A stretch of 64,000 nt of DNA from an uncultured Mycoplasmatota bacterium (GCA_900544605.1 UQVP01000003.1:4031-68030); one strand, 5' to 3'; numbered from the stretch's first letter, positions 23,916 through 54,895 are shown. Made by a program: numbers and translations. The notes: generated by a model not told the origin, from the sequence alone.

Positions 23916-23992
23916 GGGGGATTAGCTCAGTTGGCTAGAGCACTTGCCTTGCACGCAAGGGGTCAAGGGTTCGAATCCCTTATCCTCCACCA
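23916..23992 (+). tRNA. tRNA-Ala (anticodon UGC), CCA encoded
   Basis: Cloverleaf folded by hand: GGGGGAT acceptor with the G3:U70 Ala identity pair, anticodon loop CTTGCAC, T-loop TTCGAAT. Confidence 0.9.
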
Positions 23993-24930: not shown

Positions 24931-25007
24931 TGGTCGGGAAAACAGGATTTGAACCTGCAACCCCTTGGTCCCAAACCAAGTGCTCTACCAAGTTGAGCCA
25001 TTTCCCG
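24931..25007 (-). tRNA. tRNA-Pro (UGG)
   Basis: Hand-folded cloverleaf; anticodon loop TTTGGGA; CCA encoded. Confidence 0.9.
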
Positions 25008-25012
25008 ATATA

Positions 25013-25089
25013 TGGTGCGCTCGAAGGGATTCGAACCCCTGACCTTTTGGTTCGTAGCCAAACACTCTATCCAGCTGAGCTACGAGCGC
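25013..25089 (-). tRNA. tRNA-Arg (ACG)
   Basis: Anticodon loop CTACGAA; GCGCTCG acceptor; CCA encoded. Confidence 0.9.
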
Positions 25090-25115
25090 AAATAAGGTTT
25101 ATAGTTTAAACAAAA

Positions 25116-25191
25116 TGGTGGCTCCGACTGGAATCGAACCAGTGACACAAGGATTTTCAGTCCTTTGCTCTACCGACTGAGCTACGAAGCC
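25116..25191 (-). tRNA. tRNA-Phe (GAA)
   Basis: Anticodon loop CTGAAAA; CCA encoded. Confidence 0.9.
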
Positions 25192-25198
25192 AAATTAA

Positions 25199-25274
25199 TG
25201 GCGGTTCCGACGAGAATCGAACTCGCGATCTTCTGCGTGACAGGCAGACGTGATAACCGCTACACCACGGAACC
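25199..25274 (-). tRNA. tRNA-Asp (GUC)
   Basis: Anticodon loop CTGTCAC; discriminator G; CCA encoded. Confidence 0.9.
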
Positions 25275-25277
25275 AAA

Positions 25278-25354
<77 letters not shown>

Positions 25355-25367
25355 ATAATAAATAAAG

Positions 25368-25460
25368 TGGCGGAGAAAGAGGGATTCGAACCCCCGCGCC
25401 GTTGCCGACCTCCTGGTTTTCAAGACCAGTCCCTTCAACCGGACTTGGGTATTTCTCCGC
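25368..25460 (-). tRNA. tRNA-Ser (UGA), long variable arm
   Basis: Anticodon loop CTTGAAA; 93 nt; CCA encoded. Confidence 0.9.
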
Positions 25461-25502
25461 ATAAGTTTAATAAAGTTATAAATACAACTTTATATACAAA
25501 AA

Positions 25503-25591
25503 TGGTGCCTAAGGCCGGACTTGAACCGGCATGAAGTATGACCTTCGCAGGATTTTAAGTCCTGTGCGTCTACCAATTCCGCCACTCAGGC
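25503..25591 (-). tRNA. tRNA-Leu (UAA), long variable arm
   Basis: Anticodon loop CTTAAAA; 89 nt; CCA encoded. Confidence 0.9.
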
Positions 25592-25600
25592 AACAAAAGA

Positions 25601-25676
25601 TGGTGTCCCGTACAGAATTCGAATCTGTGACCCTTTGATTAAAAGTCAAATGCTCTACCAGCTGAGCTAACGGGAC
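25601..25676 (-). tRNA. tRNA-Lys (UUU)
   Basis: Anticodon loop CTTTTAA; CCA encoded. Confidence 0.9.
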
Positions 25677-25691
25677 ATAATATATTAAAAA

Positions 25692-25766
25692 TGGCTGCCT
25701 CGGCTAGATTCGAACTAGCGCATGCCACAGTCAAAGTGTGGTGCCTTACCGCTTGGCTACGAGGCA
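25692..25766 (-). tRNA. tRNA-Gln (UUG)
   Basis: Anticodon loop CTTTGAC; CCA encoded. Confidence 0.88.
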
Positions 25767-25786
25767 ATACTAACCAAACCAAAAAG

Positions 25787-25870
25787 TGGTGGAGGGAGAT
25801 GGATTTGAACCATCGAACCCGAAAGAACAGATTTACAGTCTGCCGCGTTTGACCACTTCGCTACCCCTCC
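25787..25870 (-). tRNA. tRNA-Tyr (GUA), long variable arm
   Basis: Anticodon loop CTGTAAA; 84 nt; CCA encoded. Confidence 0.88.
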
Positions 25871-25875
25871 AAAAG

Positions 25876-25951
<76 letters not shown>

Positions 25952-25954
25952 AAA

Positions 25955-26031
25955 TGGTGGGCGATATAGGACTCGAACCTATGACCCCCTGCTTGTAAGG
26001 CAGGTGCTCTAACCAACTGAGCTAATCGCCC
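25955..26031 (-). tRNA. tRNA-Val (UAC)
   Basis: Anticodon loop CTTACAA; CCA encoded; first gene of the operon. Confidence 0.9.
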
Positions 26032-48429: not shown

Positions 48430-48963
48430 CTAATTTTTTCTATTTAGTTCTAATACTTTATATTGTCCAATAATTCTATTATTTTCCCAACCAATACAAT
48501 CATATATAGGTTTATCTACTTGCTCAACCCTGCAACATCCATTTGAACAGGTATCACAACTTTTTGGAAGTAACGATCTTATATATAGTCTTTCTTCTGG
48601 TGTTAATTTTTCTCCAACCATTTTATAAAATTCATCAGGTTTTTCTATAATATCATCTATTATAGATTTTAAATTTGTTTGTTCTTGATAATATTCGTCT
48701 TCCATTTCTGGGGCATTGATTTCTAGATATTTTCTTAAAATATCATCTTTTGATAACATTAATGGTTCCCTTGTTTTATATATCATTGTTACAAGTGTAC
48801 TGTAATAATCACTTAATTTTTCAACTGTATAATTATTTTTTAAACTAATTTTTCTAGATGTAAGAATTTCTCTATATTCTTGTTTTGTTGGAATGAATTC
48901 ACATATAAATTTTATTTCATCAACTTCTACAACAAATAAATTAAAAACACTGTATTTTTTCAT
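48430..48963 (-). CDS. Hypothetical protein with a C-terminal Cys cluster
   Basis: ORF of 177 aa containing CDTCSNGCC...C. No family recognised. Confidence 0.4.
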   Translation of the reverse strand: MKKYSVFNLFVVEVDEIKFICEFIPTKQEYREILTSRKISLKNNYTVEKLSDYYSTLVTMIYKTREPLMLSKDDILRKYLEINAPEMEDEYYQEQTNLKSIIDDIIEKPDEFYKMVGEKLTPEERLYIRSLLPKSCDTCSNGCCRVEQVDKPIYDCIGWENNRIIGQYKVLELNRKN

Positions 48964-49055: not shown

Positions 49056-49085
49056 ATAAAAATCTCAAAGTATAACGCTTTGAGA
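49056..49085 (-). terminator. Intrinsic terminator directly after the most distal SEC-C tail remnant
   Basis: tctcaaag / ctttgaga stem with a 7-nt loop, followed by tttttatt on the minus strand. Confidence 0.7.
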
Positions 49086-49096
49086 AATTTTAATTA

Positions 49097-49147
49097 TTAT
49101 TTACCACAACACTGTTTATATTTACGTCCTGATCCGCAAGGTAAAAA
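49097..49147 (-). repeat. Orphan SEC-C motif coding remnant (copy 4)
   Basis: Minus strand reads FLPCGSGRKYKQCCGK*. The frame is closed by TAG 34 codons upstream of the stop and contains no start codon. Confidence 0.65.
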
Positions 49148-49588
49148 TTTAAAACAACCAAGTAATTTTTTTCTTTTAAATTGGTATTTTTTTGTACTTA
49201 ACTACTCTCGGTTACACTTCGCTTCACTAGCAGAACATATCTAAAAACATATCTAAGATTATTTATTTTTTAATGATATCTATAACATTCAATAAAAATA
49301 CCTAATAATCCTCTGTTTAAATCATCAATTATTGCTTTTTAACCTTTTTTATATTAAAAAATGCTTGTAAAATTAAGTCCAAAATTTTAACAAATTTATT
49401 TCATAACCTTTTTTCTTTACCTCATCTTCTATTTTTTTGTAAATATTAGATTTCATATTTTTTATTCTCCTTTTCTATTTTTTATTTAATTTAAATTTAC
49501 TTCATATCTAACTACTTTTATATCAATTTCTTTCCATAAAAAAATGTTAGCATATTTAACTATGTCAACATTTTTAAACAAACAATAT

Positions 49589-50443
49589 TTAAACTCCAAC
49601 TAGTTCTTGTTCTAATAATTCAATAATTAAATTAATAGAATCCATAATATCATCATAATCAACATTTTCTACATAAGATTTTTTATTTTTGTAGGTTTTA
49701 AAATTTTGTTTCAGTTTATCACTTTTTTTAATTAAATCAAAAGTTTTTACAATTTTTTCTACGTCATAATTTGTTTCTCTTCTTTTAAAAGTATTCTTTA
49801 TTGCTTTTACTAAAGCATCTTTATTTAATTCATCATAGAATCTAGTTAAAAGTATATATAAATCATAAAAATCTTTTGCTCTTGTATTCATAATATTATC
49901 AGTTATAAAAGTTTCAAATTTTTCCGCAATTATAGTTTCTTTATTAAAAGCCATAATATTAATATAAGAATCGTCAAACATACATTTATACTTAAATTCT
50001 AATTCTCTTGGTGTAATTGGATCTCCTACTGTAATATCAATTGATAGTGGTACTTGTAGATGTTCTTTAAATCCTATTAAACTAACTTTTAATCCACCAT
50101 ATTTATCTATCAGTCTTATTTCTTTTGTATTTTTAATTTTAAAATTAACATCATCTTCACAATCAATAGAAATTATTTCATTAATAATATTTTCTAATTC
50201 TTTTGTATCCAAAGGTAAACCTTTTATCATTGTGTCCATATCTTGAGTAGTTCTACGTTCATCTCCAAATATTGCAGATAGTAAAAGTCCGCCCTTTAGA
50301 ATAAAGTTATTTTTATACTTGCTTTTTGATATACGATATAATAATCTTTCAAAAAAATACATTTGCATTATATCTTGAGGCTCTAAATTATTTTTATGTG
50401 CTTTAGTTTTAATTTTTATTTTTAAATTTTCTGCATCTAACAC
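49589..50443 (-). CDS. AbiEii/AbiGii-family nucleotidyltransferase toxin
   Basis: The N-terminal helix region ...QMYFFERLLYRISKSKYKNNFILKGGLLL is typical of AbiEii. The GTG start overlaps the AbiEi stop (TAGTG). Confidence 0.8.
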   Translation of the reverse strand: MLDAENLKIKIKTKAHKNNLEPQDIMQMYFFERLLYRISKSKYKNNFILKGGLLLSAIFGDERRTTQDMDTMIKGLPLDTKELENIINEIISIDCEDDVNFKIKNTKEIRLIDKYGGLKVSLIGFKEHLQVPLSIDITVGDPITPRELEFKYKCMFDDSYINIMAFNKETIIAEKFETFITDNIMNTRAKDFYDLYILLTRFYDELNKDALVKAIKNTFKRRETNYDVEKIVKTFDLIKKSDKLKQNFKTYKNKKSYVENVDYDDIMDSINLIIELLEQELVGV

Positions 50444-51036
50444 TACATTAACACCTCCAAATACTTATTTATATCATCTTCGACATTAAACTTTTTAGCA
50501 TATTCCATAAGTTTTGGTAAATCTCTTTCTTTTTTATTATTTAAATACTCAGTAATAGCATATTTTATAGTTTCAATATCTTGATTATCTTTATCTCTTA
50601 ATAAATCACATATACATCTTTCTGCATTATAACAAAGAATATTTTGTCCTTGTGGACTTTTAATAGTCATCTTTCCTATTTCAAATATTTCATTTTTTAC
50701 ATAATGTAATTTAACATTATCATATTTTTTTAAACTTCCATTATATCCTCTATTTACTGTAATATGATATGTGCTTGGTACAGTTTCACATAAATTTAAA
50801 AAATATAAAGCAGTTTCATGCGAAAATACAGCATTATTTCCATAAGTTAAATTAAAATATTCATCACCCCAAGTAGAAGGTAATACATATAAACCATTTT
50901 TTACTCTTTCTAATTGTCCTTTATTAACAAGTCTAGTTAAAAACACTCTGTTAATATCATTTTCAACTATTTCCTTAGTTGTAATAACTCCATTGTTATC
51001 TTCTATAAGTTTTAAAATTTGTTCTTCTTTATTCAT
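50443..51036 (-). CDS. AbiEi-family antitoxin / transcriptional regulator
   Basis: Winged-helix N-terminus NNGVITTKEIVENDINRVFLTRLVNKGQLERVKNGLYVL; paired with AbiEii. Confidence 0.78.
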   Translation of the reverse strand: MNKEEQILKLIEDNNGVITTKEIVENDINRVFLTRLVNKGQLERVKNGLYVLPSTWGDEYFNLTYGNNAVFSHETALYFLNLCETVPSTYHITVNRGYNGSLKKYDNVKLHYVKNEIFEIGKMTIKSPQGQNILCYNAERCICDLLRDKDNQDIETIKYAITEYLNNKKERDLPKLMEYAKKFNVEDDINKYLEVLM

Positions 51037-51260
51037 AAATATCAGTTCCTTTCTACATACAATTATAGCATATATGTATGTTATTTGGAACACATATATA
51101 TTATTTTCTTTAAATTTTACAATTCTATTTGTCAAAATAAAAATGTTATCACGTTTCCTATGATAACATTCCTTATTTTTCAATGATTTTAACAGTTTTT
51201 TAAATTTTTATGAGCATAAATTTTTAAAAGTTCAAAAAGCCTTTTAAGACTTATTTTATA

Positions 51261-51311
51261 CTACTTTCCGCAACATTGCTTATATTTTTTACCCGAACCA
51301 CAAGTTCGTCC
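51261..51311 (-). repeat. Orphan SEC-C motif coding remnant (copy 3)
   Basis: Minus strand reads GRTCGSGKKYKQCCGK*. There is an in-frame TGA 31 codons upstream and no start codon. Confidence 0.65.
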
Positions 51312-51514
51312 TTTTTCAGTATATATGATACTATAAAATATATATAGTATTATAGGTTTTTCAAGGTTTAAAAGGTCTGAACATTATTGGTATAAATGTT
51401 ACATATAGTATTATTTTTACCATACATTTTTTAGTCTGTGAGCACAAAATGTGCACATTGTTCCCATCACATATTAAAAAATGTATAACATCATATATGA
51501 TATTACTAATTATT

Positions 51515-52099
51515 TCAAATTTTTCCAACGTTATGTGTTTTATCTATTTTTTTATCTAATTTTTTGTAAGTTGATTTAAAATTTAGTAAAGTTTCCATTG
51601 CACTTATAACTGCTGAGGATTCAAATATATCTCTCCTATAATACCCAGTTGTTAGGTATCCAGTTATTCCATTATTTTTTTTATTACTACTATTACCAAG
51701 AATACTTTCAATAACTTTATTCAAAGATTTTCCATCTTTAACATAATTAAACATTCTTTCAGTAATTTGAAGACCACTTGATTTTCCTATAAATTCATTA
51801 CCATTTTGGTCTAATATTGATGCATAAGTAACAATAAAATATGTATTATCTATCTGTTCATATCCACCCTCAATACTAATTAGTAAATCAAATGAAATAT
51901 CATTTTCCATGCAATAATTATATAAACCATGATTTCTATTTTTTGCACCTATTAAAGTTTCATCATTAATAGGTTTAGAACTTACTAAAGAATTAACATT
52001 AACAGGGACAATAGAAATATCATCAAATCCTAATTCATTCATTGCAATTAAAATTGACCTTTTTTTAGAAACATTCGTAGAGCCTAAAACTATTTTCAT
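51515..52099 (-). CDS. DUF84 / YjjX-type inosine-xanthosine triphosphatase (NTPase I-T family)
   Basis: MKIVLGSTNVSKKRSI..., IGAKNRN, ISIEGG and NGITGYLTTGYYRRDIFESSAVISAM parallel E. coli YjjX blocks (from memory). Confidence 0.78.
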   Translation of the reverse strand: MKIVLGSTNVSKKRSILIAMNELGFDDISIVPVNVNSLVSSKPINDETLIGAKNRNHGLYNYCMENDISFDLLISIEGGYEQIDNTYFIVTYASILDQNGNEFIGKSSGLQITERMFNYVKDGKSLNKVIESILGNSSNKKNNGITGYLTTGYYRRDIFESSAVISAMETLLNFKSTYKKLDKKIDKTHNVGKI

Positions 52100-52131
52100 A
52101 TTTTCACCATCCTATTTTTTTATAAAACAAA

Positions 52132-52170
52132 CTATTTACTACAACGTTGTTTAGGATTCTTGCCAAACTC
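52132..52170 (-). repeat. Degenerate SEC-C tail remnant (copy 2)
   Basis: Minus strand reads EFGKNPKQRCSK*, compared with secA GSGKKYKQCCGK*. About two thirds of the nucleotides match over 33 nt by eye. Confidence 0.35.
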
Positions 52171-52235
52171 AAAGATTACTTTTTTCCAGTACATATAACA
52201 CTATGTAGCATAGTATTATATATTTTTCATTTATG

Positions 52236-52272
52236 AGAACAAAATGTGCACAAATTGGATTATGTGCACATT
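52236..52272 (-). terminator. secA intrinsic terminator
   Basis: aatgtgcaca / tgtgcacatt is a perfect 10-bp stem with a 10-nt loop, followed by ttttgtt on the minus strand. Confidence 0.7.
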
Positions 52273-52323
52273 TTTTTGCCTTTTTTTGACTATTGAGAAA
52301 CTCACAAACCCTTATAAAACGAG

Positions 52324-54813
52324 CTATTTACCACAGCATTGTTTGTATTTTTTTCCACTGCCACATGGGCACAATTGATTGCGACCGATTTTGTTAACCT
52401 TTTTAGGTTGACTTTTCTTTTCTTTGTTAGTATCTCTAACAGCTTCACCTTTGCTTACTTGTTTTCTTTCAACATTTTGTCTGATTTCAGCTTTAATTAA
52501 ATAGAAAGTAATTTCTTTATCAATTAAATCAAGGAAGTTTTCAAATAATTCGTATCCTTCATTTGTATAAGCACGCAATGGATTTTCTTGAGCATAACTT
52601 CTTAAATGAATTCCCTCTCTTAATAATGACATAGTATTAATATGTTCCATCCAATGTGTATCTATAATTCTTAAAGATATAGCTTTTTCAAATTCTTGAA
52701 TTATTTCTTTTGGTACATCTTTAATTTTAGCTTCATACTCTTTTACTAAATGACTATAAATGTAATCTGAAATTTCATCTGGATTTTTATCACTAATATC
52801 TTTTACATCAATTTTCTTTTTAACTAATTCATTTACTACTTCTAATATTTCACTAAGATCGTTTTCTGTTAAATTATCACTTTCTTGTAAATGATCAAAT
52901 ACTAAAGCATACACAAAATTGTGGAAACTTTCTAATATATCATCGTGGATATCTTTTTTGTCAAGAATATTATTCCTTTTTTCATAAACAATTTCTCTTT
53001 GTTGATTTATAACATCATCATATTGAAGTAATGTTTTTCTTATATCATAGTTATTTCCTTCAATTCTTTTTTGAGCAGATTCAACTGATTTTGATAACAT
53101 TCCATTTCGAATTGATACATCACCATCAAAACCAACACTTTGAAGTAATGTTTTTGCACGATCAGTACCGAATCTAACCATTAAATCATCTTCAAAAGAT
53201 ACACAGAATTGTGAGAATCCAGGATCTCCTTGACGTCCAGAACGACCACGTAGCTGATTGTCGATTCTTCTAGATTCATGTCTTTCTGTTCCAATAACAC
53301 ATAATCCACCTAAAGCCTTAACTTCATCTGATAGTTTAATATCAGTACCACGTCCAGCCATGTTAGTAGCAATTGTAACAGATCCTTTTTCACCAGCTTT
53401 AGCAATAATTTCTGCTTCACGAGCATGGTTTTTAGCATTTAACACTTCGTGTTTAATTCCTTCTTTTTTTAACATAGAACTAATTAATTCACTAGTTTCT
53501 ACCGCCACAGTACCAACTAAAATTGGTTGACCTTTAGCATGTCTTTCTTTTATTTCTTTAACTATAGCTTTATATTTACCTGCTTTAGTTGGGAATATTA
53601 AATCAGAATAATCTTCTCTTATAACCGGTTTATTAGTAGGAATTTGAATAACATACATATTATATATGTCTCTAAATTCTTCTTCTTCAGTTTTAGCAGT
53701 ACCTGTCATACCAGCAAGTTTTTTATACATTCTAAATAAATTTTGGAAAGTAATAGTTGCTAAAGTCTTTGTTTCTTGTTGAATCTCTACACCTTCCTTA
53801 GCTTCAATAGCTTGATGAAGACCATCAGAATAATTTCTTCCTTGCATTAATCTTCCAGTAAATGGATCAACTATAACAACTTTGCCATCTTGAACTACGT
53901 AATCAAAATCTCTTTTCATAGCATAATTAGCACGTAAAGCTTGATTTATAAAGTGTACTAATGATGTATGTTTAATATCATAAAGGTTATCAATACCAAA
54001 AGCTTTTTCAGCACGTTCTACACCTTTGTCATCTAAAGTAACGCTTTTTGTTTTTTCATCGTATAAATAACCATCATTTTCTTTTAATGATTTAGCAAAA
54101 TGATCTGTTTCTTTATATAAATTTAATGATTGCATACTTCCACCTGAAATAATAAGTGGAGTTCTAGCTTCATCGATTAATACTGAGTCAACTTCATCAA
54201 CAATAGCGAAGTTAAATGGTCTAGCAACTCTATCTTCTGCTTTTACAACCATATTATCTCTTAGATAATCAAAACCAATCTCATTATTAGTTGAATATAA
54301 AATATCACAATTGTATGCTTCCTTCTTCTCTGATGGAGTTAAATCACGGTAATTAACGCCAACAGTTAAGCCAAGGAATCTATAGATACTTCCCATCCAT
54401 TCAGCATCACGTCCTGCTAAGTATTCATTAACAGTAATAATGTGAACACCTTCACCGCTTAAAGCATTTAAGTATGCAGGCATAGTAGAAGTTAATGTTT
54501 TACCTTCTCCTGTTTTCATTTCGGCTATATTTCCATAATGAATAGCAAAACCACCAATAACTTGAACTTTATATGGTTTTTCTCCAATAACACGGAAAGC
54601 CGCTTCTCTAGCAACAGCAAAAGCTTCAATTTTAATATCTTCTAAAGTTTCTCCATTTTTTAATCTATTTTTAAATTCATCAGTTTTCCCTTTTAATTCT
54701 TCATCACTTAATTTGCTCATTTCTTCATCTAAAGCAAGAACTTCTTCTGATAAAGCAGTAAAACGTTCTAATTCTTTGTATTCATGATCAAATAATTTTT
54801 TTAAAAATTTCAT
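52324..54813 (-). CDS. secA: Preprotein translocase ATPase SecA
   Basis: MKFLKKLFDHEYKELERF start; Walker A MKTGEGKTL; DEVDSVLIDEARTPLIISG; C-terminal SEC-C zinc motif CPCGSGKKYKQCCGK. Confidence 0.97.
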   Translation of the reverse strand: MKFLKKLFDHEYKELERFTALSEEVLALDEEMSKLSDEELKGKTDEFKNRLKNGETLEDIKIEAFAVAREAAFRVIGEKPYKVQVIGGFAIHYGNIAEMKTGEGKTLTSTMPAYLNALSGEGVHIITVNEYLAGRDAEWMGSIYRFLGLTVGVNYRDLTPSEKKEAYNCDILYSTNNEIGFDYLRDNMVVKAEDRVARPFNFAIVDEVDSVLIDEARTPLIISGGSMQSLNLYKETDHFAKSLKENDGYLYDEKTKSVTLDDKGVERAEKAFGIDNLYDIKHTSLVHFINQALRANYAMKRDFDYVVQDGKVVIVDPFTGRLMQGRNYSDGLHQAIEAKEGVEIQQETKTLATITFQNLFRMYKKLAGMTGTAKTEEEEFRDIYNMYVIQIPTNKPVIREDYSDLIFPTKAGKYKAIVKEIKERHAKGQPILVGTVAVETSELISSMLKKEGIKHEVLNAKNHAREAEIIAKAGEKGSVTIATNMAGRGTDIKLSDEVKALGGLCVIGTERHESRRIDNQLRGRSGRQGDPGFSQFCVSFEDDLMVRFGTDRAKTLLQSVGFDGDVSIRNGMLSKSVESAQKRIEGNNYDIRKTLLQYDDVINQQREIVYEKRNNILDKKDIHDDILESFHNFVYALVFDHLQESDNLTENDLSEILEVVNELVKKKIDVKDISDKNPDEISDYIYSHLVKEYEAKIKDVPKEIIQEFEKAISLRIIDTHWMEHINTMSLLREGIHLRSYAQENPLRAYTNEGYELFENFLDLIDKEITFYLIKAEIRQNVERKQVSKGEAVRDTNKEKKSQPKKVNKIGRNQLCPCGSGKKYKQCCGK

Positions 54814-54895
54814 GTGCTCAATCCTTTCTTGTATATACATATCTATTTTATCAAAAATTAAAAAAAAATAATAGTTTTTTCTATTATTTCCTTAA

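What the first reader, a model, noticed from the sequence alone, without database searches (positions are those of the whole stretch)
49056..52330. Four copies of the SecA SEC-C tail in 3.3 kb: islands apparently stacked at the secA 3' end
The real secA ends ...NQLCPCGSGKKYKQCCGK* (stop at 52324-52326). Three more stretches lie downstream in the same orientation and encode the same zinc-motif tail. None has a start codon, and each has an in-frame stop shortly upstream. They are 52132-52170 (EFGKNPKQRCSK*, degenerate), 51261-51311 (GRTCGSGKKYKQCCGK*) and 49097-49147 (FLPCGSGRKYKQCCGK*). The copies differ from each other largely at synonymous positions, so they are not a recent local DNA duplication. 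They look like 3' ends of different origin. The most distal copy is followed by a clean intrinsic terminator (49056-49085), as expected for the ancestral secA end. Cargo genes lie between the copies: a DUF84 NTPase, and AbiEi/AbiEii plus about 350 nt of gene-less DNA. Copies 2 and 3 are each preceded by a related module (tgtgcacattttgtKctca ... aataatactat ... tatatRtactgRaaaaa). This is the footprint expected from serial site-specific integration into the 3' end of a gene. Each incoming element supplies a replacement 3' end and displaces the previous one. No recombinase is present, so the array is either decayed or mobilised in trans. I am not aware of secA being a described integration hotspot.
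Basis: partly seen in the sequence, partly recalled or inferred. Interest (0 to 1): 0.7.

Follow-up and report, generated by a model that had tools for sequence, protein, structure and literature searches.

The report
Mobile-element landing site at secA's end
The 3' end of the essential secA gene in this gut bacterium carries the stacked remains of at least three mobile elements, each of which brought its own replacement for the last 13 codons of secA; the mechanism is ordinary, but the target site is widely used and I found no description of it.

Summary
secA (52324-54840, minus strand) is followed by three same-strand orphan copies of its zinc-finger tail, at 52132-52173 (decayed), 51261-51302 and 49097-49138. 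They differ from secA almost only at synonymous sites.

Among 80 related species, 35 have a tyrosine integrase and/or orphan tails just downstream of secA, and none have tails upstream. The closest relative (L011) has an intact integrase 227 nt after the secA stop. One 4.6-kb element is about 100% identical in five different contexts. Its junctions place the crossover at TGYGG, the Cys-Gly codons of CGSG. The element supplies GSGKKYKQCCGK*, the downstream arm and, in most cases, the integrase.

The window's array has no integrase. It consists of:
- an internally deleted element;
- an NTPase islet with matching arm sites (TGTGCACA);
- an AbiEi/AbiEii islet with a different, old right arm.

Predicted phages of higher-GC hosts carry the same tail in attP. 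I found no published description of secA as an attB.

This is a new member of a known kind: integration into a gene's 3' end with tandem accretion. A side finding is that one integrase lineage at this site is always split at a poly-A run yet is evidently mobile.

The parts
52324..54840 (-). secA. The last 13 codons plus stop (52324-52365) are the currently functional, element-supplied SEC-C tail. The core TGTGG is at 52361-52365.
   Evidence: ORF and Pfam SecA domains. Against L011, divergence jumps to 5 mismatches within 12 nt right after TGTGGC, versus 7 in the preceding 300 nt.
52239..52323 (-). Left arm (P') of the most recent element (E1). It contains the post-stop motif TTTTATAAGGGTTTGTGAG, an A-rich stretch and two TGTGCACA putative arm-type sites (52263-52270 and 52245-52252).
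   Evidence: 89% identical over 91 nt to the left arm of L049, which continues into an integrase. 72% identical to the L011 left arm.
52174..52238 (-). Right arm (P) remnant of E1 (ATAATACTAT ... TATATGTACTGGAAAAA), fused directly to the left arm. This marks an internal deletion of the element body.
   Evidence: Aligns with the module before copy 3. Homologous to right arms of L087, L048, L078 and L020.
52132..52173 (-). Orphan tail copy 2. It is decayed and its core is mutated (TTTGG instead of TGTGG).
   Evidence: 38/54 identity to the secA tail plus post-stop sequence, above every one of 2000 simulations. HMM score only 8 bits.
51515..52099 (-). Cargo gene: NTPase_I-T (DUF84), 194 aa.
   Evidence: Pfam E=2.3e-31.
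51312..51460 (-). Right arm (P) of the TGTGCACA-type element, with TGTGCACATTTTGT at 51444-51457 and ATAATACTAT repeats. It ends ...ACTGAAAAAGGACGAAC just before the core.
   Evidence: Repeat families D5, D11 and D18. 76% identical over 123 nt to L020:21570-21692, and similar to the right arms of L048 and L078.
51261..51302 (-). Orphan tail copy 3, of the GGTTCGGG...GGAAAGTAG variant, with an intact TGTGG core at 51298-51302.
   Evidence: HMM E=2e-11. This tail variant travels with the xATAAAATAAG left arm in L048, L080, L038, L087, L017 and the active element of L190-L194.
51037..51260 (-). Left arm remnant of E3, of the split-integrase element type (TATAAAATAAG...TTTAAAAAT).
   Evidence: Sequence comparison. 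80% identical over 69 nt to the L074 left arm.
49589..51036 (-). Cargo: AbiEi (50443-51036) and AbiEii (49589-50443), a toxin-antitoxin / abortive-infection pair.
   Evidence: Pfam. L039 has the same pair (73-77% aa identity) directly after secA, followed by an integrase fragment.
49139..49588 (-). Gene-less DNA. Its distal ~150 nt are a right arm, with two TTAGATATG sites (49236-49256) and phased AGTG/AGTA repeats.
   Evidence: Conserved block TTTTAGATAYGTTTTTAGATAYGTTCT shared by seven loci. Paired sites occur in both arms of integrase-less islets in L038, L044 and L087. The arm is homologous in L186/L187. blastx finds no integrase remnant.
49097..49138 (-). Orphan tail copy 4, the oldest recognisable one, with core TGCGG at 49134-49138.
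   Evidence: HMM E=3e-09. TGCGG is also the attB-side core in L194.
49056..49085 (-). Intrinsic terminator following copy 4.
   Evidence: Terminator scan: stem of 8-9 pairs followed by TTTTTATTAT.
48430..48963 (-). 177-aa gene with no Pfam family, the first gene beyond the array.
   Evidence: Homologues (63% identity) also sit just after an orphan tail in L183, L186 and L187. L182 shares 97.8% identity from 49025 downward but has a different gene upstream.

Best explanation
The region is a decayed tandem array of integrative elements at an attB inside the last codons of secA.

**How the elements integrate.** A family of lambda/Tn916-type tyrosine integrases (catalytic, SAM-like and arm-binding domains) recombines the element's attP with the secA sequence CC(A/T)-TGYGG. 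The crossover lies in or next to TGYGG, the codons for Cys-Gly of the zinc motif CxCGSG. The element's P' arm carries a replacement for everything to the right of the crossover:
- the codons GSGKKYKQCCGK and the stop;
- a palindrome CCCTTAT-N3-ATAAGGG or a terminator;
- repeated arm-type sites;
- in most cases the integrase gene itself.

secA therefore stays intact, with two zinc ligands encoded by the host and two by the element. The old tail is displaced to the far end of the element. Repeated integration into the secA-proximal site stacks elements, so the oldest lies farthest from secA.

**What happened in this window (inferred).** Three such events are still visible:
- E1 (52132-52323) is an L049/L011-type element reduced by internal deletion to a left arm fused to a right arm.
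- E2 (51261-52131) keeps an NTPase gene and a right arm with the same TGTGCACA sites.
- E3 (49097-51260) keeps AbiEi/AbiEii, a left arm of the split-integrase type and an old right arm with TTAGATAYG sites.

All three integrase genes have been lost.

**Shown versus inferred.**
- Shown: the repeats, their synonymous divergence, homology of the arms to integrase-bearing elements, and the crossover position in a mobile relative.
- Inferred: the order of events, the role of the repeated motifs as arm-type sites, and the present immobility of the array.
For: - **Repeats and divergence.**
- **Closest relative.** L011 matches the window up to 52222, about 100 nt past the secA stop. secA itself is 95.5% identical. 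Beyond the breakpoint L011 carries an intact 439-aa integrase followed by a second ORF that I read, without testing, as a replication protein. The integrase has Pfam Phage_integrase, Phage_int_SAM_3 and Arm-DNA-bind_4.
- **Frequency.** Of 80 species-representative secA loci, 24 have a homologous integrase downstream and 15 have orphan tails. Together with L039 this makes 35 occupied loci. Every significant orphan tail is downstream of secA and on its strand.
- **Assembly breaks.** Six contigs are cut inside the secA 3' end. Four of them (L027, L036, L073, L079) end within the CCNTGTGG sequence, two exactly at ...TGTGG.
- **Crossover at nucleotide resolution.** A 4.6-kb element is about 100% identical in L190-L194 while its flanks differ. 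Its left junction reads host ...TG(T/C)GG | element TTCGGG.... Its right junction reads element ...ACNTGTGG | a variable old tail.
- **Arm-type sites.** Left arms share one architecture. The repeated 8-10-mers differ between integrase subgroups: TTGTGTGCA, TGTGCACA, TGTCCAC, TTGACCAC and others.
- **Window arms match relatives.** Matches to L049, L020, L048, L078, L087, L074, L186 and others.
- **attP in phages.** Predicted phage genomes carry an orphan tail next to int, flanked by phage genes on both sides (L099, L114, L123). Prophages abut real secA in L095 and L098.
Against: - No integrase, excisionase or other mobility gene lies in the array or anywhere in the 64-kb window. The mechanism is therefore inferred from relatives, not from the window itself.
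- No empty site, and no excision or attP junction, was found for this species.
- The arrangement is fixed in all roughly 20 contigs at about 99% identity.
- E2 does not have a clean element structure: the NTPase gene sits between the post-stop motif and the TGTGCACA sites.
- E3 combines a left arm and a right arm of different types, so deletions or recombination between elements must be invoked.
- Copy 2 is only marginally detectable by the HMM.
Confidence: 0.9

Rival explanations
1. The array is not dead. One or more integrase-less segments are cis-mobilisable cassettes (CIME-like) that an integrase encoded elsewhere in the genome, or on an incoming element, still excises and moves. The leading candidates are the 1.06-kb unit from the secA core to the copy 3 core, and E3.
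For: - Cores are intact at secA, copy 3 and copy 4.
- The secA-proximal left arm and the pre-copy-3 right arm carry the same TGTGCACA sites.
- In L038, L044, L087, L082 and L075, islets of 1.4-2.9 kb without an integrase keep conserved TTAGATAYG right arms around different cargo; L038, L044 and L087 have the paired sites in both arms.
- Arrays of such islets are common.
Against: - No cognate integrase is in the window.
- The arrangement is invariant in all same-species contigs.
- The copy 2 core is mutated.
- E3's two arms are of different types.
- No identical integrase-less cassette was seen in two different contexts.
Confidence: 0.25
2. The copies arose by local duplication of the secA 3' end (replication slippage or unequal crossing-over), with no mobile elements involved.
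For: The copies are direct repeats on one strand within 3.3 kb.
Against: - The copies differ from secA at 11 of 39 coding positions yet keep the peptide. They therefore evolved under selection as functional ends of secA, not as local duplicates.
- Each copy is flanked by arms homologous to those of integrase-bearing elements in other genera.
- The same pattern, with integrases present, recurs in 35 of 80 species.
Confidence: 0.02
3. The orphan tails are the 3' remnants of independent small SEC-C-domain genes (YchJ/UPF0225-like) that decayed in place.
For: Small proteins with SEC-C motifs exist in bacteria (own knowledge).
Against: - Homology to secA begins exactly at the TGYGG core in every copy.
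- The DNA upstream of each copy is non-coding arm DNA with in-frame stops.
- In relatives no orphan tail ends an intact gene.
- All orphan tails lie downstream of secA on its strand.
Confidence: 0.02

Closest known systems
Lambdoid phage 21 / e14 integration into the 3' end of icd in E. coli (own knowledge)
   Same: A tyrosine integrase recombines inside the 3' coding end of a housekeeping gene. The element carries a replacement 3' end that differs mostly at synonymous sites, and the displaced end remains as a pseudo-3' end at the far junction.
   Different: The target here is the secA SEC-C tail, and only 13 codons are replaced. The hosts are low-GC gut Bacilli and other Firmicutes. Several elements are stacked and most are decayed.
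ICESt1/ICESt3 and CIMEs at the fda 3' end in Streptococcus thermophilus: accretion-mobilisation (own knowledge; ICE/IME surveys PMC4701971 and PMC5357655 list target genes and contain no occurrence of 'secA')
   Same: There is tandem accretion of elements at one att site in a gene's 3' end. Integrase-less, att-flanked remnants (CIMEs) sit next to, or derive from, autonomous elements.
   Different: The integrase clade and the target gene are different. Trans-mobilisation is not demonstrated here. The elements here span IME-like, ICE-like and phage types.
Genomic islands and prophages in the 3' ends of tRNA/tmRNA genes, with tandem arrays (own knowledge; TIGER/Islander papers)
   Same: A highly conserved short target gives a broad host range. 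The element restores the gene's 3' end. Orphan 3' fragments mark old junctions, and the sites are hotspots with several islands.
   Different: The target is a protein-coding zinc-finger motif, not an RNA gene. The crossover lies in Cys-Gly codons.
AbiE (AbiEi/AbiEii) type IV toxin-antitoxin / abortive-infection system
   Same: The cargo of E3 is an adjacent AbiEi_4 and AbiEii pair. By my own knowledge this is typical defence or addiction cargo of mobile elements.
   Different: It is cargo only and plays no part in the integration mechanism.
IS3/IS911 and dnaX programmed -1 frameshifting at A-rich slippery sites (own knowledge). This applies to the side finding only.
   Same: The split-integrase lineage has the heptamer A_AAA_AAA followed by a 0-frame stop three codons later, with the catalytic domain in the -1 frame.
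   Different: The gene is a tyrosine integrase, not a transposase. A7 variants need +1, so transcriptional slippage or phase variation is equally possible. Nothing has been tested experimentally.

Membership tests
Tyrosine-integrase integrative element targeting a gene 3' end | Encodes a tyrosine recombinase (Phage_integrase catalytic domain) | tested here: not met
   No hit in the 64-kb window by tblastn or by blastx of the gene-less stretches. The feature is met in relatives at the same site. The window therefore holds remnants, not autonomous members.
Tyrosine-integrase integrative element targeting a gene 3' end | Flanked by direct repeats that contain the recombination core (attL/attR) | tested here: met
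   Four tails share the core TGYGG. The core was defined from an identical element in five contexts.
Tyrosine-integrase integrative element targeting a gene 3' end | The target gene's reading frame is restored by element DNA | tested here: met
   secA is intact with a complete CxCx8CC tail. Against L011, divergence steps up right after TGTGGC.
Tyrosine-integrase integrative element targeting a gene 3' end | Arms with repeated integrase arm-type sites on both sides of the core | tested here: inconclusive
   Repeated 8-10-mers are present and differ between integrase subgroups. TGTGCACA and TTAGATAYG occur in the window's arms. Binding was not tested.
Tyrosine-integrase integrative element targeting a gene 3' end | Evidence of mobility: the same element in different sites or hosts, or empty sites or excision products | tested here: inconclusive
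   Met for a relative: a 4.6-kb element is identical in five contexts. Not met for the window's own segments.
CIME (cis-mobilisable element) / tandem accretion | att-flanked segment lacking recombination and transfer genes, at an att site used by autonomous elements | tested here: met
   E1-E3 have att copies and arms but no integrase. Autonomous elements use the same site in L011, L019, L030, L053 and L070.
CIME (cis-mobilisable element) / tandem accretion | Excision or transfer when an integrase is supplied in trans | not testable with these tools
   This needs junction reads or an experiment.
Prophage | Phage structural, lysis or replication genes inside the att-flanked segment | tested here: not met
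   The window's cargo is only an NTPase and AbiEi/AbiEii. Phage members of the clade exist elsewhere.
Small SEC-C-domain protein genes | Intact ORF with a start codon that ends in the SEC-C motif | tested here: not met
   In-frame stops lie 22-40 codons upstream. Copies 3 and 4 have no start codon, and copy 2 has only a 20-codon ORF.
AbiE toxin-antitoxin system | Adjacent AbiEi antitoxin and AbiEii nucleotidyltransferase genes | tested here: met
   PF13338 (E=1.5e-08) and PF08843 (E=9.7e-37). The two genes overlap by one base.

The most novel reading that the evidence does not exclude
The secA tail serves as a gene-capture platform. Short integrase-less cassettes with conserved P and P' arms (the TGTGCACA and TTAGATAYG types) and interchangeable cargo of one to three genes would be inserted, stacked and exchanged in trans by arm-binding tyrosine integrases. 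One integrase lineage at the site is expressed only through a programmed frameshift or transcriptional slippage at a poly-A run. This would be an integron-like accretion system built on a lambda-type integrase. The window's array would be a working part of it rather than debris.
Probability: 0.2. Interest if true: 0.75.

Novelty: new member of a known kind. Interest (0 to 1): 0.5.

Why it matters
- **A new integration target.** It adds a widely used target to the short list of protein-coding attB sites. That target is the invariant zinc-finger tail of the essential translocase SecA. Because the tail is so conserved, it can serve as a landing pad across hosts, from RF39-like gut Bacilli to higher-GC Firmicutes phage hosts.
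- **A chimeric SecA.** In many gut bacteria the C-terminal metal-binding motif of SecA is encoded partly by the host and partly by a mobile element.
- **A marker for genome analysis.** The site flags defence and accessory islets. It explains why many MAG contigs break at or just after the secA 3' end. It also gives a simple sequence signature, orphan CGSGKKYKxCCGK* tails, for delimiting islands in uncultured genomes.
- **A candidate for recoding.** The always-split but evidently mobile integrase lineage found at the site is a candidate for recoding-controlled integration.

Tried and rejected
- **Rfam.** A scan of the whole window found only tRNAs and nothing in the array.
- **Integrase remnants in the window.** blastx of the gene-less stretches against the integrases gave only chance-level hits.
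- **Strain-level empty site.** Exact-protein look-ups of the 177-aa and 364-aa neighbours returned only colinear contigs at about 99% identity. The exact SecA sequence is not on record.
- **Metagenome scans.** A secA-specific 29-mer gave 0 hits. The predicted attP junction of the 4.6-kb element gave 0 hits in JGI metagenomes and in IMG/VR. The element is known only from ENA/Logan assemblies, which cannot be pattern-searched.
- **Single-protein IMG/VR scan.** It found only distant integrases. The alignment-based scan worked.
- **GenBank phages.** The best integrase identities are 34-38%. The two closest phages tested have no SEC-C tail near int. A short-peptide tblastn gave nothing, probably because of low-complexity filtering.
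- **Literature.** Six searches found no description of secA as an integration site, and none of a frameshifted tyrosine integrase. Spot checks of hits were irrelevant.
- **secA-prfB synteny as the ancestral frame.** Rejected. prfB lies within 10 kb downstream only in L085.
- **Crossover at the post-stop palindrome.** Rejected. Tail variants travel with the left arm, and element identity starts right after TGYGG.

Full report
**What is there.** The window has 26.6% G+C. It comes from an uncultured gut member of the Bacilli. The nearest species representatives are MAGs labelled Bacilli, Tenericutes, Candidatus Coprosoma or Pelethosoma. From my own knowledge I read these as RF39-like.

secA lies on the minus strand at 52324-54840 and ends ...CPCGSGKKYKQCCGK*. 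The repeat finder returns a single four-member direct-repeat family at 52324-52365, 52132-52173, 51261-51302 and 49097-49138. A six-frame scan of all 64 kb finds the tail motif nowhere else.

Copies 3 and 4 are highly significant with a 45-nt tail HMM (E=2e-11 and 3e-09). Copy 2 is decayed and scores 8 bits. Even so, it matches the secA tail plus the 12 nt after the stop at 38 of 54 positions, above every one of 2000 simulations.

Relative to secA, copies 3 and 4 each differ at 11 of 39 coding nucleotides, with 0 and 1 amino-acid changes. Each was therefore once a selected, functional secA end.

One correction is needed: copy 2's short open stretch does contain an ATG.

**Relatives show the recombinase.** A scan of one genome per species with SecA gave 80 loci. 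L011 is the closest. Its secA is 95.5% identical, and it stays colinear with the window until about 100 nt past the stop, at window 52222. It then diverges into an intact 439-aa integrase that starts 227 nt after the stop, followed by a further ORF that I read, without testing, as a replication protein. The integrase has Phage_integrase, Phage_int_SAM_3 and Arm-DNA-bind_4 domains.

tblastn finds homologous integrases or fragments downstream of secA in 24 loci. In most they start 185-253 nt after the secA stop; in others they start after an orphan tail or after an extra gene. The HMM finds orphan tails in 15 loci. All are downstream of secA and on its strand, and none lies in the 10 kb upstream.

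Counting L039, 35 of 80 species are visibly occupied. Some of the loci scored as having neither feature hold decayed arms, for example L020. The gene hpf upstream of secA is conserved in nearly all loci, while the downstream side is hypervariable.

Sixteen contigs stop at or within 300 nt of the secA end. Four of them (L027, L036, L073, L079) end within the CCNTGTGG sequence, two exactly at ...TGTGG. That is where an assembly graph would branch at a repeated or polymorphic junction.

**Crossover at nucleotide resolution.** The N-terminal integrase ORF P0061 lies on a 4.6-kb element. The element carries a 451-aa ORF, the integrase in two ORFs, a 340-aa ORF and Fic.

This element is about 100% identical in L190-L194, but its flanks differ. 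It follows the secA of three different hosts. In two loci it follows the orphan tail behind another element's 423-aa integrase.

At the left junction the host-specific sequence runs to ...CC(A/T)TG(T/C)GG. The element-identical sequence begins at TTCGGGAAAAAAGTATAAACAATGCTGTGGAAAGTAA gataaaataaggg. At the right junction the element-identical sequence ends ...CCACTAC(T/A)TGTGG, and a different old tail follows in each context.

The common core is therefore TGYGG, the Cys-Gly codons of CGSG. In L194 the polymorphic third base (TGC at attL, TGT at attR) stays with its left flank.

Two further observations agree. The GGTTCGGG...GGAAAGTAG tail variant always travels with the xATAAAATAAG left arm, whatever lies to its left. 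Between the window and L011, mismatches jump to 5 within 12 nt immediately after TGTGGC.

The element thus supplies the last 12 codons, the stop and the downstream sequence. The SecA zinc motif is chimeric: two Cys codons come from the host side of the crossover and two from the element.

**Arms.** The left arms between the stop and int share one plan:
- a palindrome CCCTTAT-N3-ATAAGGG, or a terminator hairpin that contains it;
- an A-rich stretch;
- two or three direct copies of an 8-10-mer, plus inverted copies;
- a second TTATAAATAAAGGG;
- a hairpin with a T run, then the ribosome-binding site and int.

The 8-10-mer differs between integrase subgroups:
- TTGTGTGCA in L011, L030 and L087;
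- TGTGCACA in L047, L049 and the window;
- TGTCCAC in L041, L053 and L070;
- other sequences in L019, L054, L063 and L085.

This is the behaviour expected of arm-type sites. That role is my inference.

Right arms fall into classes:
- ATAAATACT/ATAATACT repeats ending AC(A/T)TGTGG;
- CCCAAAAGC/AGTGC phased repeats;
- a TTTAAAAGGAAAAAATTAC type.

The last two share an invariant TTTAGATAYGTTTTTAGATAYGTTCT block.

**Reading the window.**
- *E1 (52132-52323).* Directly after the secA stop, 91 nt are 89% identical to the left arm of L049, which continues into an integrase. After the second TGTGCACA site the window switches to a right arm and then the decayed copy 2. E1 is therefore an element that has lost its whole interior.
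- *E2 (51261-52131).* It holds the NTPase gene and a right arm that begins with the same TGTGCACATTTTGT. This arm is homologous to the right arms of L020, L048, L078 and L087.
- *E3 (49097-51260).* It starts with the tail and left-arm type of the split-integrase elements. It carries AbiEi/AbiEii and ends in a TTAGATATG-type right arm. In L039 the same AbiE pair (73-77% aa identity) directly follows secA and is followed by an integrase fragment. E3 therefore looks like such an element after loss of its integrase.

The right arm and tail before the 177-aa gene are homologous in L186/L187, whose 177-aa homologue is only 63% identical. The distal junction is therefore old.

In L183 the homologue of the 177-aa gene is itself flanked by decayed tails. 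Copy 4 is thus the oldest recognisable end, not provably the ancestral one.

The cores at secA, copy 3 and copy 4 are intact. The core of copy 2 is mutated.

**Population level.** About 20 contigs at roughly 99% identity are colinear with the window. No empty site or alternative junction was found.

Variation appears one step further out. L011 carries an integrase-bearing element in place of the array. L182 is 97.8% identical from 49025 downward but has an 810-aa TPR/R3H gene upstream of the 177-aa gene.

**Breadth.** The elements at this site are of several kinds. By my reading of the ORF sequences, which was not checked against any family library:
- L011, L019 and L030 look IME- or PICI-like, with int, a replication-type protein, an HTH regulator and a PemK-like toxin.
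- L053 and L070 look ICE-like, with int, ParA/ParB-like proteins and a 923-aa surface protein.

An IMG/VR scan with an integrase alignment gave 80 viral loci from hosts with 26-51% G+C. In 18 of them a SEC-C tail lies 0.15-0.7 kb beyond the end of int, on the opposite strand. L095 and L098 include real secA sequence. In L099, L114 and L123 the orphan tail lies between int and genes that read as tail-fibre or late genes, with cI-like and replication-type genes on the other side of int (ORF reading, not family-tested). I take that to be an attP.

No GenBank phage has an integrase closer than 38% identity. The nearest two have no tail near int.

**Known or new.** The mechanism is textbook, by my own knowledge. 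Examples are phage 21/e14 in icd, ICESt3 and CIMEs at fda, and islands in tRNA 3' ends. Tandem accretion with integrase-less remnants is also known.

Six full-text searches found no paper describing secA as an integration site. The large Streptococcus ICE/IME surveys contain no occurrence of 'secA'. Automated island catalogues may hold such cases without having described them.

I therefore file this as a new member of a known kind.

**Side finding.** Integrases of the L080 type are split at one position, an A7 or A8 run, in every locus seen. All 120 best database clusters of the N-terminal ORF are 161-199 aa long except one of 280 aa, and none has a catalytic domain. They come from hundreds of assemblies.

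The 4.6-kb element that is identical in five contexts carries A8. The split gene must therefore be functional.

The site reads A_AAA_AAA, with a 0-frame stop three codons on and the catalytic domain in the -1 frame. A7 variants need +1 instead. Ribosomal frameshifting, transcriptional slippage and phase variation all remain possible.

I found no description of this for tyrosine integrases.

Noticed in passing
L080:14170-14195; L048:14165-14190; L056:21375-21400; L034, L074, L188-L194 (~8498): One integrase lineage at the secA site is always split into a 170-aa arm/core-binding ORF and a ~220-aa catalytic ORF at an A7/A8 run (A_AAA_AAA, with a stop three codons later). All 120 best database clusters of the N-terminal ORF lack a catalytic domain and are 161-199 aa long except one of 280 aa. 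Yet a 4.6-kb element carrying this split gene is identical in five contexts. This points to a programmed frameshift, transcriptional slippage or phase variation.
   Followed up: partly
L038:12508-14974; L044:12508-15296; L087:14088-16339; L082:12502-15386; L075; L067: Integrase-less islets of 1.4-2.9 kb in different species keep conserved right arms with paired TTAGATAYG sites and phased AGTGC repeats. L038, L044 and L087 have the paired sites in both arms. The cargo differs between them (TetR plus methyltransferase, a kinase-like gene, a 635-aa ORF and others). They look like cassettes kept mobilisable in trans.
   Followed up: partly
L027, L036, L073, L079 (3' contig ends); L029, L045, L052: MAG contigs from independent assemblies end within the CCNTGTGG core of secA, or about 30 nt after the stop inside the repeated arm sites. 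This att site appears to be a recurrent cause of assembly breaks in these genomes.
   Followed up: partly
L183:9600-10700; window 48430-48963: The 177-aa gene family with no Pfam match lies just after an orphan tail in the window, L183, L186 and L187. In L183 it is flanked on both sides by decayed tails with similar right arms, so it may itself be old cargo.
   Followed up: partly
L182:1-2620 versus window 49025: A near relative (97.8% identity across the 177-aa and 364-aa genes) has an 810-aa TPR/R3H gene directly upstream of the 177-aa gene, in place of the terminator, copy 4 and the AbiE islet. The breakpoint is about 30 nt beyond the terminator.
   Followed up: partly
L191 and L193:4809-6422: A second, unsplit 423-aa integrase with an HTH_17 (excisionase-like) gene upstream lies at the right-hand end of a larger element. 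It is followed by an orphan tail and then the 4.6-kb element. These are tandem arrays that mix elements whose int lies at opposite ends.
   Followed up: no
window 24931-26031 and 23916-23992: A cluster of 12 tRNA genes on the minus strand, plus one tRNA-Ala on the plus strand. This is ordinary and unrelated to the array.
   Followed up: no
window 51361-51528 (minus strand): A 55-codon ORF runs through the TGTGCACA right arm. It is probably spurious.
   Followed up: no
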